A DNA stretch of 19,632 nt, from the UHGV virus genome UHGV-1566927, one strand, 5' to 3'. The position numbers are program-made. Of the stretch, positions 1 to 3,000 are shown one piece after another. Origin of the DNA: a virus. How positions within the stretch are numbered: the stretch's first letter is position 1; every line of letters starts with the position of its first letter.

Positions 1-3000
1 AGCAAGGCGGGAAGTCGGGAGATAAGTCATTGATAAAGTGGCGGAGAGAGGGGGATTTGAACCCCCGGTAGAGTTGCCCCTACTCCGGTTTTCGAGACCT
101 ATCCTCTTTCAATTGCTATCAAACACTTAACCGCGTAATTGAGAAAATTGTGCAATTACTGCACATCACAAATTCAGTAAGTTACGTCATGGTGTGCTCA
201 GAATTTCTCATAGTTTTGGCTTTTAAAACTTCAGATCGCCGGGTTATCGTCTTCGGTGGCCCGGTTAATCAGATGCGTCAGAACTCCCTTTACATCCACC
301 TCATCCAGTACCTCACCTTCAAGAACTTCACCATCTACCGTTATCAGCGCATCACCTCTAGGTTTGGCAAAGTGACAACCACCTGAGTACGAAATCAGGT
401 ATGTGCTTTCTGGCGATGGCTTCATACCATTCTCAATCACCGCTAGTCCATGCGAAGTCTCAATCACCAGGCTGTTAGCCGTGACGCCGCAGATAGTCTC
501 TATGGTGAGCGCGCGTTCAATGTAGTCTTTGGCTGGACTTGGGAACCCCATATCAAAGCCCTCCGTTCGGGTTGTACATGAACCACGTCTTGTTCTCGCC
601 ATGGTCAGGGGTGATGTCTTTGAAGCAGGTGGTGTATCTGGCTATCCAAAGGTTCGCCTCTTCCATGCTGAAGTGCAGTTGACCTTTAGTAGTTCCTGAA
701 CAAAATCAGCGGTTTTCACAATTCTGCGGCCTGACCTTTCATGCACAATAGAGGCCCTAAATGCAATTTTGATATCTGAACGACGCGGCATAGTTTCACC
801 TCCCAATAAATGCTGTATGTACATACAGTGTATCGCTTTAAGGTAGTCGATCAAGTTGTCTGATGGTGCTAAACTTTCAGCCTTTCAGAATTGACTGATT
901 TTTCTCATGTTAAAACTTTTTGCTAAGTACACATCGATTGGCGTTCTCAACACACTCATTCACTGGGTTATGTTTGGCATATGTATATACGGATTATCTA
1001 CAAGCCAAGCGTTAGCTAACTTTGCTGGGTTCGTCGTAGCCGTTAGTTTCAGCTTTTACGCTAATGCGCGGTTTACGTTTAAAGCATCAACATCTACGCT
1101 TCGCTACATGCTTTACGTTGGCTTTATGGGAACGTTGAGCGCTGCTGTTGGTTGGGCAGCTGATATGTGTGGATTACCTCCGATTATTACGCTTGTGGCA
1201 TTCTCAGCCATTAGTCTCGTATGTGGCTTTTTCTATTCTAAGTTCATTGTCTTTAGGGAAGCGAAATGAAGATATCTTTAGTTGTTCCTGTCTATAACGA
1301 AGAAGATACAATACCAATTTTCTATAAAACTGTTCGTGATTTTGAGGAGTTAAAAAAATATGAAATTGAAATTGTTTTTATAAACGACGGAAGTAAAGAT
1401 GGCACTGAGTCAATTATAAATTCAATTGCCTCATGGGATCCTCTTGTGGTCGCATTATCGTTCACTCGTAACTTTGGTAAAGAGCCGGCATTGTTCGCAG
1501 GACTAGATCACGCAACTGGTGACGCAATAATTCCTATTGATGTAGATTTGCAAGACCCTATTGAAGTCATTCCTCATTTGATTGATAAATGGCAAGCTGG
1601 CGCTGACATGGTTCTTGCTAAAAGAACGGATCGCTCAACAGATAGCAGACTTAAGCGCAAATCTGCTGAGTGGTTCTACAAACTTCATAATAAAATTAGC
1701 TCACCAAAAATTGAAGAAAATGTTGGGGACTTTCGCCTCATGTCGCGAGGGGTTGTGGAGAACATAAAACTACTTCCAGAACGTAACTTGTTCATGAAAG
1801 GAGTCCTTAGTTGGGTCGGTGGAAAAACTGATGTTGTAGAATATGCGCGCGCCGAACGTGTAGCAGGGGACTCAAAATTTAATGGATGGAAATTGTGGAA
1901 TCTAGCACTTGAGGGAATAACTAGCTTCTCAACTTTTCCATTGAGAATGTGGACATACATCGGCCTTATCGTTGCTGGAATTTCATTTTTCTATGGAATC
2001 TGGTTAATACTTGATACCTTGGCGTTTGGAAATCCGGTCAGAGGATACCCATCAATACTTGTCTCTATCTTATTCTTGGGTGGAGTGCAATTGATTGGTG
2101 TTGGCGTTCTTGGTGAATACATTGGGCGTATATATATCGAAGTTAAAGCTAGACCGAAGTACATTATTAAGGGAAATAAAAAATAATGAATGTTAAAAGC
2201 ATTTCTTTAAACAAACACACCATAGTTTATTCATGTTTGTTTTTCGCATTTTTGATACAATTTATCAACCTGCCAGCTTATGATGATGATTTGAATAGGT
2301 TTGGCTGGAATTTTATGAAGCTTGCATACCAAGGGCGAGTTGTTACCGAGCTTTACTACTCGTCTTTATATTTATTCCAACAATCCTTACCTGTTAACAT
2401 TTACACAGCCAACCTTATTATCATTGGCGTCGTAATGTTTTTTACCGCTAAGTATTTTTATGAGTCGCTACAAATTCATAACCTCCCAATACTTACCGTA
2501 GCGCTTGTAATGATACACCCATTTATAATTGAAAACCTTTCATATCATATAGATTCTATAGGGATGGGGATGGCGCTATGCATAGCAGTATTCGCATCTG
2601 TTTTTGTATGTAAAAACAAAGTAATTTACTATCTACTTCCTGTTACTTTATTGACATTAGCATCCGCGATGTACCAATCCTCAATTTCAGTGTACTGTTC
2701 CACTGTTGTATTGGTATCAACTGTGTTAAGCCTATCTGATAAGACCAGCACCAGGGATGTTATAATCTACATAACAAAGAAAATTGTCATTTTCTTATTC
2801 TCCATCTTAGGCGCTTTTATTTTATATAAAATCTTCGTAACCTCACCTTATATACAAGACAAATCAAAGTTAATACCATTTACTGGTGAATTCATTCATA
2901 AGTTAAGCTTAAATGTAAGCAGGGTTATTGATGTAATCTATAGCAGCCTTAATGATCTACAAATTCTAATCATTGCATCAATGGTGATGATATACTACGT

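What the first reader, a model, noticed from the sequence alone, without database searches (positions are those of the whole stretch)
231..854. LexA-box controlled locus with a lone divergent UmuD-like gene at the prophage end
A near-consensus SOS box (CTGTATGTACATACAG, 813-828) overlaps the -10 of a minus-strand promoter. Downstream are a strongly SD-preceded 49-aa ORF, an overlapping 37-aa ORF and a 123-aa ORF with UmuD/MucA hallmarks (GFPSPA cleavage-site motif, C-terminal VKGVLTHLI) but with a divergent middle region in which the catalytic Ser-Lys motifs are not recognisable, and no umuC-type polymerase gene follows. This could be a degraded mutagenesis operon, or an SOS-induced UmuD'-like modulator kept by the phage to interact with host RecA, Pol V or ClpXP.
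Basis: partly seen in the sequence, partly recalled or inferred. Interest (0 to 1): 0.5.

Follow-up and report, generated by a model that had tools for sequence, protein, structure and literature searches.

The report
SOS-controlled prophage UmuD′-mimic gene module
At the end of a gut-bacterial prophage sits a DNA-damage-inducible promoter driving a small, pre-processed copy of the mutagenesis cofactor UmuD′ (a short relative of phage P1 HumD), preceded by a frameshifted partner gene. It is a recognisable but uncharacterised variant of a known kind of phage gene, not a decayed polymerase operon.

Summary
A perfect palindromic LexA box (813-828) lies 37 nt upstream of the first start codon. The same box sits 29-42 nt upstream in 76 of 82 related phage loci, overlapping a conserved TTGAYY-N17-TACTGT promoter.

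The 49-aa and 37-aa ORFs are two halves of one conserved 79-aa gene, "A" (PHROG 3893, predicted winged-helix fold, function unknown). A 1-nt deletion breaks it here, and the broken allele recurs in contigs from several independent samples.

The 123-aa ORF is really a 106-aa gene, "B" (231-551), starting MGFPSPA. B belongs to PHROG 3469:
- It aligns full-length with HumD/UmuD′ (hhalign 98.6%, E 5e-16).
- It is under purifying selection (dN/dS 0.07-0.16).
- It has no conserved Ser-Lys dyad and misses the Pfam S24 and NCBIfam HumD cut-offs.
- No umuC follows it, here or in 54 of 55 related loci.

Most likely B is a "born-cleaved" UmuD′ surrogate, made on SOS induction, that partners host UmuC as P1 HumD does. 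That step is inferred, not shown. The "degraded operon" reading is rejected. Moderate interest: a new, minimal variant of a known kind.

The parts
38..100 (-). 3′ part of tRNA-Ser(CGA) (serU). This is the attachment-site core that marks the prophage end.
   Evidence: Window 1-105 is 99% identical to nearly all E. coli genomes. It also matches phage attP regions annotated tRNA-Ser. ARAGORN finds no complete tRNA. The anticodon-loop sequence CTCGAAA is visible. Rfam finds only T-arm-like fragments.
149..165 (-). Terminator-like hairpin downstream of gene B (weak).
   Evidence: Consensus scan. Not tested further.
231..551 (-). Gene B: a 106-aa HumD-like, 'born-cleaved' UmuD′ homologue (MGFPSPA...EDDNPAI).
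559..563 (-). Shine-Dalgarno GGAGG of gene B, inside the 3′ end of gene A.
   Evidence: Sequence. It gives B its own translation start despite the upstream frameshift.
553..791 (-). Gene A pseudogene: a 79-aa winged-helix protein gene (PHROG 3893) broken by a 1-nt deletion near 675/676. This yields the 49-aa (642-791) and 37-aa (553-666) ORFs.
   Evidence: DNA alignment with intact E. coli copies. tblastn gives two HSPs in different frames. Repairing the frame restores a 79-aa protein. The truncated product P0049 is on at least 15 contigs.
797..804 (-). Shine-Dalgarno GGGAGGTG of gene A.
   Evidence: Sequence.
813..828 (.). LexA (SOS) box CTGTATGTACATACAG.
   Evidence: The leader is homologous to the annotated LexA site of P1 humD.
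827..854 (-). Candidate sigma-70 promoter: -35 TTGATC (849-854), 16-nt spacer, -10 TACACT (827-832) overlapping the LexA box.
   Evidence: The -35 and spacing are conserved across about 70 distinct upstream regions. The site is below the threshold of the generic scan, so the promoter is inferred.

Best explanation
This is a LexA-repressed accessory ('moron') operon at the attachment-site end of a lambdoid, gtrABC-carrying prophage. Its conserved core, gene B, encodes a minimal HumD-type homologue of UmuD′.

Shown in silico:
- The promoter's -10 overlaps a consensus LexA box, so the operon should be off in the lysogen and on during the SOS response.
- B begins Met-Gly-Phe-Pro-Ser-Pro-Ala, at the residue that RecA-stimulated self-cleavage exposes in UmuD (Gly25).
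- B keeps the UmuD′ N-terminal arm almost invariant, together with an S24-type beta-barrel and the C-terminal strand.
- B has lost the Ser-loop and has no conserved Ser-Lys dyad.

Inferred:
- After removal of Met1, B is a ready-made UmuD′ mimic that needs no RecA-dependent processing.
- It dimerises and binds the host's UmuC, as P1 HumD does. This gives the cell and the induced phage genome early translesion synthesis after DNA damage.

The upstream 79-aa winged-helix gene A is an optional, translationally coupled accessory of unknown role. In this lineage it is inactivated by a frameshift, while B keeps its own ribosome-binding site and remains under selection.
For: LexA box and promoter: with 76 of 82 loci carrying the box at a fixed distance.

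Homology of B to HumD/UmuD′ over its whole length: (98.6%, E 5.4e-16). The N-arm also hits UmuD structures 8gmt and 1umu. PHROG 3469 'UmuD-like' scores 6e-42.

Features shared with experimentally studied P1 HumD: the Met-Gly start, the C-terminal DDxPVI tail and a homologous LexA-box leader. The same gene A precedes a bona fide HumD (164.8 bits against a cut-off of 120) in E. coli M171-1.

Conservation: the N-arm residues G2 F3 S5 P6 A7 D9 are invariant in 73 of 73 unique sequences.

Purifying selection: dN/dS is 0.07-0.16.

A is dispensable: 45 of 82 loci lack it, and a close relative (L009) has the same promoter driving B directly.

P1 HumD is described as a functional homologue of UmuD′ that facilitates SOS mutagenesis (McLenigan et al. 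1999, J Bacteriol 181:7005; title seen; the paper itself could not be read).
Against: No experiment exists for the 106-aa family.

B fails the curated cut-offs: NCBIfam HumD scores 28.9 bits against 120, over residues 1-25 only, and Pfam gives no hit.

Relative to UmuD′/HumD, B lacks about 20 residues, including the Ser60 loop. In the published Pol V model the UmuC C-terminus docks on UmuD′ residues that the paper numbers S36, T71, K73 and E69. By my own renumbering these are S60, T95, K97 and E93 of UmuD. That contact may therefore be altered in B. The Lys equivalent (K63) is K or R in 19 of 22 sequences and I or V in the rest.

The B structure model has only moderate confidence (pLDDT 69).

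LexA binding, SOS induction, dimerisation and UmuC binding are all untested.
Confidence: 0.6

Rival explanations
1. B is an SOS modulator or decoy rather than a polymerase cofactor. It could be a catalytically dead UmuD′ look-alike that titrates host UmuD/UmuD′, UmuC or the RecA* filament, damping mutagenesis or tuning LexA/cI cleavage and so the timing of prophage induction. Alternatively its acidic C-terminal tip, which resembles the SSB C-terminus, could target SSB-binding proteins.
For: B lacks the Ser loop and about 20 residues, and has no conserved dyad. Its acidic tail DDxPV[I/M] is conserved in 61 of 73 unique sequences and resembles the SSB-Ct DDDIPF. In mEp390 the module lies next to a divergent dinI, a RecA-filament modulator. 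LexA-controlled prophage operons that pair an SOS modulator with another small protein are known (PMC3121763).
Against: The UmuD′ N-arm is invariant in B, and in the Pol V model it contacts UmuC's active site. A pure RecA or SSB-partner decoy would have little reason to keep it. The closest characterised relative, P1 HumD, promotes mutagenesis rather than inhibiting it (title of McLenigan 1999).
Confidence: 0.22
2. The operon is primarily an induction switch. Gene A would be a LexA-controlled antirepressor (as in Gifsy phages, 186 Tum or N15 AntC) with B as its SOS-modulating companion. In this window the frameshift in A would then have disabled SOS induction of the prophage.
For: A is a small protein made from a LexA-controlled promoter and paired with an SOS-related protein, as in the Gifsy dinI-antirepressor operons. 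The UV-induced phage phiES15 carries A+B and only a short 134-aa DicA-like repressor.
Against: Other A+B phages have long cI/LexA-type repressors: mEp390 218 aa and RothD 231 aa. A is absent from 45 of 82 loci with the same promoter and B. A has no sequence or fold match to known antirepressors beyond a generic winged helix. The same A is paired with HumD in different phage backgrounds.
Confidence: 0.1
3. The locus is a decaying remnant of a umuDC/mucAB-type mutagenesis operon, with the small ORFs and the divergent middle of the protein as debris.
For: One gene of the module, A, really is a pseudogene here. B misses the Pfam and NCBIfam thresholds.
Against: B has dN/dS 0.07-0.16. It belongs to a length-conserved (105-109 aa) family with at least 435 relatives in IMG/VR. 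The promoter, Shine-Dalgarno sequence and LexA box are intact and conserved. In 54 of 55 loci with enough downstream sequence no umuC-sized ORF follows B; the single exception (RothD, 348 aa, annotated hypothetical) was not characterised. Gene A is not related to umuD or umuC.
Confidence: 0.03

Closest known systems
Bacteriophage P1 HumD (NCBIfam NF051876, 129 aa) and N15 gp26
   Same: Both are phage-encoded and start at the residue that corresponds to the UmuD cleavage product (MGFPSPA). Both have the same C-terminal DDxPVI tail and a LexA box about 37 nt upstream with a homologous leader. Neither has an adjacent umuC. Full-length profile homology is established. In E. coli M171-1 a true HumD sits behind the same gene A.
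   Different: B is about 20 residues shorter. The loop carrying the UmuD Ser60 equivalent and a second segment are missing. B scores only 28.9 bits against the HumD cut-off of 120. It is often preceded by gene A, which P1 lacks; P1's neighbour lxr is divergent, 190 aa and not detectably related (no tblastn hit to A in the P1 region). Function has been tested for HumD only.
E. coli UmuD′ (PDB 1umu, 1i4v, 1ay9; Peptidase S24)
   Different: B is not made by RecA-stimulated self-cleavage. It has no conserved Ser-Lys dyad and gives no Pfam S24 hit. It has an extra acidic C-terminal tail that UmuD′ lacks (UmuD′ ends ...VVKAMR). It is not co-transcribed with umuC.
LexA-controlled prophage operons pairing an SOS modulator with a small effector (Gifsy dinI-gfoA/gftA; phage 186 Tum)
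   Same: Each has a LexA box at a prophage-borne promoter outside the immunity region, and a small protein plus an SOS-pathway protein in one operon (PMC3121763).
   Different: The components differ: UmuD′-like instead of DinI. A has no similarity to GfoA/GftA/Tum that I could detect, and no antirepressor activity is implied by the repressor types of A+B phages.
Small stand-alone winged-helix proteins (e.g. PefI, PDB 2jt1), for gene A only
   Different: The similarity is generic fold resemblance only (about 13% identity). There are no Pfam or NCBIfam hits. The PGAP product name 'DNA polymerase V' has no support.

Membership tests
HumD family (NCBIfam NF051876) | Full-length match to the curated HMM at or above the 120-bit cut-off | tested here: not met
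   28.9 bits, residues 1-25 only. The control HumD from E. coli M171-1 scores 164.8 bits.
HumD family (NCBIfam NF051876) | Protein begins at the UmuD′ N-terminus, with no pro-peptide and so no need for RecA-mediated cleavage | tested here: met
   B starts MGFPSPA. The residues G2 F3 S5 P6 A7 D9 are invariant in 73 of 73 unique sequences. P1 HumD starts the same way.
HumD family (NCBIfam NF051876) | Homology over the whole length to HumD/UmuD′ | tested here: met
   hhalign gives 98.6% probability and E 5.4e-16, aligning 1-106 with 1-127.
HumD family (NCBIfam NF051876) | Substitutes for UmuD′ with UmuC in SOS mutagenesis | not testable with these tools
   Needs genetic complementation in a ΔumuD umuC+ strain. 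It is known only for P1 HumD (McLenigan 1999, cited).
Peptidase S24 (LexA/UmuD/cI; Pfam PF00717) | Match to the Pfam model | tested here: not met
   No Pfam family at E ≤ 1. None of 38 homologues carries a precomputed Pfam domain.
Peptidase S24 (LexA/UmuD/cI; Pfam PF00717) | Catalytic Ser-Lys dyad | tested here: not met
   No Ser or Lys is invariant in the family. The Ser-loop is absent in alignments with UmuD′/HumD.
Peptidase S24 (LexA/UmuD/cI; Pfam PF00717) | S24 beta-barrel fold | tested here: met
PHROG 3469 ('UmuD-like protein') | Full-length HMM match | tested here: met
   E 6e-42, aligning 1-105 of 106.
SOS (LexA) regulon | LexA box CTGT-N8-ACAG overlapping the promoter | tested here: met
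   Box at 813-828. It is conserved at -29 to -42 in 76 of 82 loci, with the -10 overlapping.
SOS (LexA) regulon | LexA binding and damage-inducible transcription | not testable with these tools
   Needs EMSA or footprinting and expression assays.
umuDC-type operon (Pol V) | Y-family polymerase gene immediately downstream of the umuD homologue | tested here: not met
   The attachment site follows B in the window. In 54 of 55 related loci no ORF of 300 aa or more starts after B.
PHROG 3893 (gene A) | Full-length HMM match and an intact reading frame | tested here: not met
   Intact relatives match at 7.5e-31 and 2e-33. The window copy has a 1-nt deletion that splits it into 49-aa and 37-aa ORFs.

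The most novel reading that the evidence does not exclude
The A-B module may be a distinct, uncharacterised SOS effector system of enterobacterial temperate phages. B would be a minimal UmuD′ mimic whose conserved acidic C-terminal tip (DDxPV[I/M]-COOH, also present in HumD) imitates the SSB C-terminus (DDDIPF). It would use that tip to dock onto SSB-binding repair or replication proteins, or to recruit UmuC to SSB-coated gaps. The winged-helix protein A would be a specificity or regulatory subunit. On this reading B does more than simply replace UmuD′.
Probability: 0.15. Interest if true: 0.6.

Novelty: new variant of a known kind. Interest (0 to 1): 0.35.

Why it matters
Phage-borne, pre-activated UmuD′ homologues bypass the slow, RecA-dependent step that normally delays error-prone polymerase V. 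They could therefore raise damage tolerance and mutation supply in lysogens exposed to DNA-damaging antibiotics.

This analysis shows that a shorter, database-invisible branch of the HumD kind is widespread in temperate phages of Escherichia, Klebsiella, Enterobacter, Cronobacter and Erwinia. It has no Pfam hit and falls below the NCBIfam cut-off. It always sits behind the same LexA-controlled promoter, and in about half of the loci it comes with an unstudied winged-helix partner.

The work also corrects misleading annotations. The 79-aa protein is named 'DNA polymerase V', and the 106-aa protein is named 'hypothetical' or 'S24/S26 peptidase'.

It defines simple experiments on what the conserved N-arm and the SSB-like tail do. 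For this window itself the result is mostly clarifying: one intact accessory gene and one pseudogene, next to serotype-converting gtrABC genes.

Tried and rejected
- Pfam on all four reader-defined ORFs gave nothing.
- I suspected the 79-aa gene was the P1 lxr homologue. It is not: lxr is divergent, 190 aa and not detectably related, since tblastn with A found nothing in the P1 region.
- I tested whether A could be a DinI/ImpC-type protein. There is no DinI-family hit, and the predicted fold is a winged helix.
- I tested the antirepressor idea through the repressor types of A+B phages. The results were mixed, so it is not supported.
- Exhaustive HMMER with the A profile looked for informative fusions or distant relatives. 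It found 192 representatives, all about 79 aa. The few long ones are frameshift read-throughs into B or garbled ORFs.
- BFVD fold search for A found only a family member.
- The search for related loci with P1 HumD alone returned only P1-like plasmid prophages and added no diversity.
- The afdb50 library was unavailable.
- McLenigan et al. 1999 is not held in the library, so HumD's function is cited from its title only.
- Rfam on 1-1300 found only tRNA-fragment echoes.
- The generic promoter scan missed the promoter, which was recovered by comparative alignment.
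Full report
WHAT IS THERE

Window 1-105 is the 3′ part of tRNA-Ser(CGA) (serU) plus its downstream flank. It is 99% identical to nearly all E. coli genomes and matches attP regions of several phages. ARAGORN finds no whole tRNA, so this is an attachment-site junction and the prophage starts here.

Reading rightwards, the window carries:
- the module under study, on the minus strand (231-854);
- divergent gtrA, gtrB and a GtrC-like gene (907-3613), and an unclassified 522-aa polytopic membrane ORF;
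- on the minus strand, a tail spike, a gpJ-like protein, a tape measure, a major tail protein and a portal.

This is a siphovirus-type, serotype-converting prophage. The window is essentially a human-gut metagenome contig (ENA ERZ918822, 19,688 bp).

CHECK OF THE OBSERVATION

The LexA box CTGTATGTACATACAG (813-828) is real, perfectly palindromic and unique in the window. By pattern alone it is not significant, because 40 of 200 shuffles give at least one match.

I collected 80 IMG/VR loci encoding relatives of the UmuD-like protein plus four phage records.
- In 76 of 82 evaluable loci an exact CTGT-N8-ACAG lies 29-42 nt upstream of the first start codon of the module. In the window the distance is 37 nt.
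- Aligning the upstream regions on the box shows a conserved -35 (TTGATC, TTGACT or TTGACC) about 17 nt upstream of TA|CTGT. The -10 hexamer is therefore the left edge of the LexA site.
- In the window this reads TTGATC (849-854), 16 nt, TACACT (827-832).
- The annotated LexA site and leader of P1 humD are visibly homologous...CTGTATAAATGAACAGtattattGAGGTGaaaacgctATG.

SOS control is therefore strongly supported in silico. It has not been shown experimentally.

GENE MODEL

Alignment with E. coli relatives (87-88% identical) shows that the 49-aa and 37-aa ORFs are one 240-nt gene ("A", 79 aa). The window copy has lost 1 nt near 675/676: AACTGGGAC has become AACTG-CAC. tblastn finds the two halves in different frames, and inserting one base restores a 79-aa protein.

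The truncated 49-aa product is in the protein database on at least 15 contigs. The whole 630-bp module, frameshift included, is 100% identical in eight contigs from different sequencing runs. It is therefore a circulating allele, not an assembly error. The repaired frame still shows dN/dS 0.11-0.19 against intact copies, so the inactivation is recent.

The 123-aa ORF is best read as 106 aa from ATG 551:
- every homologue begins MGFPSPA;
- gene callers on nine other contigs aa;
- a GGAGG Shine-Dalgarno sequence lies at 559-563;
- the upstream ATG (602) has none and overlaps gene A.

In intact operons the A stop and the B start abut or overlap (TGAnATG or TAATG), which suggests translational coupling. 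B's own Shine-Dalgarno sequence explains how it can survive the loss of A.

WHAT GENE B IS

Sequence libraries give a split picture:
- Pfam: no hit.
- NCBIfam HumD: 28.9 bits against a cut-off of 120, over the first 25 residues only.
- PDB profile search: only the N-arm matches UmuD/UmuD′, E 4e-4.
- PHROG 3469 'UmuD-like protein': full length, 6e-42.

A profile-profile comparison of 22 family members with P1 HumD, an E. coli HumD and UmuD′ gives 98.6% probability and E 5.4e-16 over the whole length. The UmuD′ sequence was verified against PDB 1i4v.

Alignments show that B keeps three elements: the N-arm, the barrel core and the C-terminal strand (GVLTHLI versus GVVIHVV). It lacks the loop carrying UmuD Ser60 and a second segment of about 15 residues. 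No Ser or Lys is invariant in the family.

B shares with HumD, but not with UmuD′, two features. One is a Met-Gly start. The other is an acidic C-terminal tail: EDDNPAI in B, GEFDDCPVI in P1 HumD and GEFDDNPVI in the E. coli HumD.

B is under clear purifying selection, with dN/dS 0.07-0.16 against four close relatives. Family lengths stay within 105-109 aa.

B is thus a genuine, selected, minimal branch of the HumD/UmuD′ lineage. It is not a decayed gene.

GENE A

A has no Pfam or NCBIfam family. It matches PHROG 3893, of unknown function. There are 908 clusters at 90% identity; all that carry an organism name are Enterobacteriaceae. An exhaustive search finds only 192 representatives at 50% identity, with no informative fusions.

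A is optional. 37 loci are A+B and 45 are B alone behind the same promoter. Among close relatives of the window, all three states occur:
- frameshifted (this lineage);
- absent, with the same gtrA-divergent context and promoter (L009).

The same A also precedes a bona fide HumD in E. coli M171-1.

CONTEXT IN OTHER PHAGES

The module lies between the tail-fibre genes and attP/int in phiES15, Midgardsormr38, mEp390 and RothD. That is the classic moron position. In mEp390 it is next to a divergent dinI.

A 109-aa subgroup of B sits just upstream of the terminase genes instead.

In 54 of 55 loci with enough downstream sequence, no ORF of 300 aa or more follows B. B therefore must act with host proteins or alone.

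MECHANISM

The best-supported reading is that B is a 'born-cleaved' UmuD′, made only when LexA is inactivated.

Established knowledge: UmuD must be cleaved at Cys24-Gly25 on RecA* to give UmuD′, and UmuD′2 plus UmuC forms Pol V. Methionine aminopeptidase removes Met before Gly, so mature B should start GFPSPA exactly like UmuD′ (inference).

A published AlphaFold model of Pol V places one UmuD′ N-arm at the UmuC active site. The paper also recalls that armless UmuD′ dimerises but is non-mutable, and that changing even the first arm residue affects mutagenesis (PMC11791011).

B is never cleaved, yet its arm is invariant in 73 of 73 sequences. This argues that the arm's post-cleavage job, contact with a UmuC-type polymerase, is retained. 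P1 HumD, the closest characterised relative, is reported to substitute for UmuD′ (McLenigan 1999; title only).

A plausible benefit is early translesion synthesis on damaged host and phage DNA after induction. That is inference.

Against this reading, the same model docks the UmuC C-terminus on UmuD′ residues that I equate with Ser60, Thr95 and Lys97 of UmuD. B has lost the Ser loop and only partly conserves the Lys position. Binding might therefore differ, or B could act as a decoy.

I put about 0.9 on the identification as a LexA-controlled HumD-like gene plus a broken partner gene. I put about 0.6 on the cofactor mechanism.

RIVALS
- SOS/RecA/SSB-interactome modulator or dominant-negative: 0.22.
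- Antirepressor operon with A as the effector: 0.10. This is weakened by the long cI/LexA-type repressors in mEp390 and RothD, although phiES15 has a short DicA-like one.
- Decayed umuDC operon: 0.03.

NOVELTY

The kind is known: phage HumD-type UmuD′ homologues under LexA control, seen in P1, N15 and the mEp390 annotation. The family is catalogued as PHROG 3469.

I found no description in the searched literature of three things: the minimal 106-aa architecture without the Ser loop, the recurrent winged-helix partner, and the conserved SSB-like tail. Hence 'new variant of a known kind', of moderate interest.

Noticed in passing
window 234-254 (-), last 7 codons of gene B; also L004:42948-42971 (P1 HumD): The C-terminal tail D-D-x-P-[V/A/I]-[I/M]-COOH is conserved in 61 of 73 unique B sequences and in HumD (GEFDDCPVI), but is absent from UmuD′. 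Some members end DDDIPIM. It resembles the SSB C-terminal tip DDDIPF, which recruits many repair and replication proteins. It lies in the low-confidence (pLDDT < 50) end of the model.
   Followed up: partly
window 3646-5214 (+): A 522-aa polytopic membrane ORF directly after the GtrC-like gene has no Pfam or PHROG family. It may be a second serotype-specific O-antigen-modifying enzyme.
   Followed up: no
L007 2262-2498 (+) (mEp390, NC_019721 about 20749-20985): The mEp390 record does not annotate gene A. Instead it has a 42-aa 'hypothetical protein' on the opposite strand. tblastn and the ORF scan show an intact 79-aa A with a LexA box 41 nt upstream. A dinI homologue is divergently transcribed next to it.
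   Followed up: partly
L001 3554-3793, L002 3553-3792, L003 3006-3245 (RefSeq E. coli); L006 2501-2743: The 79-aa winged-helix protein is named 'DNA polymerase V' by PGAP and some phage records. The 106-aa protein is variously named 'hypothetical', 'S24/S26 family peptidase' or 'repressor protein CI'. None of these names is supported by the analyses here.
   Followed up: yes
L035 3001-5474 and the similar loci L054, L071, L076, L081, L084, L086: A 109-aa subgroup of B (tail ...DDIPIM) stands alone behind the LexA box. It lies immediately upstream of the small and large terminase genes rather than near attP, so the cassette has moved between genome positions.
   Followed up: partly
proteins P0297, P0258, P0181, P0279: Several database 'proteins' of 148-187 aa are A′-B read-through fusions. 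They are caused by frameshifts in the second half of A, near the site broken in the window. This suggests that the region of A is mutation-prone or often mis-assembled.
   Followed up: partly
L010 about 2925-2960: A close relative of B (92% identity) sits in a different upstream context with only an imperfect LexA-like site (TACTGTGTTTTTATCCAGTG). It is one of the few loci without an exact box.
   Followed up: no
window 17114-17998 and 17995-19347 (-): Two adjacent ORFs (294 and 450 aa) match different parts of one 859-position PHROG profile annotated 'portal protein' (phrog_2271). This is either a portal plus a second head protein that are fused in other phages, or a split gene.
   Followed up: no
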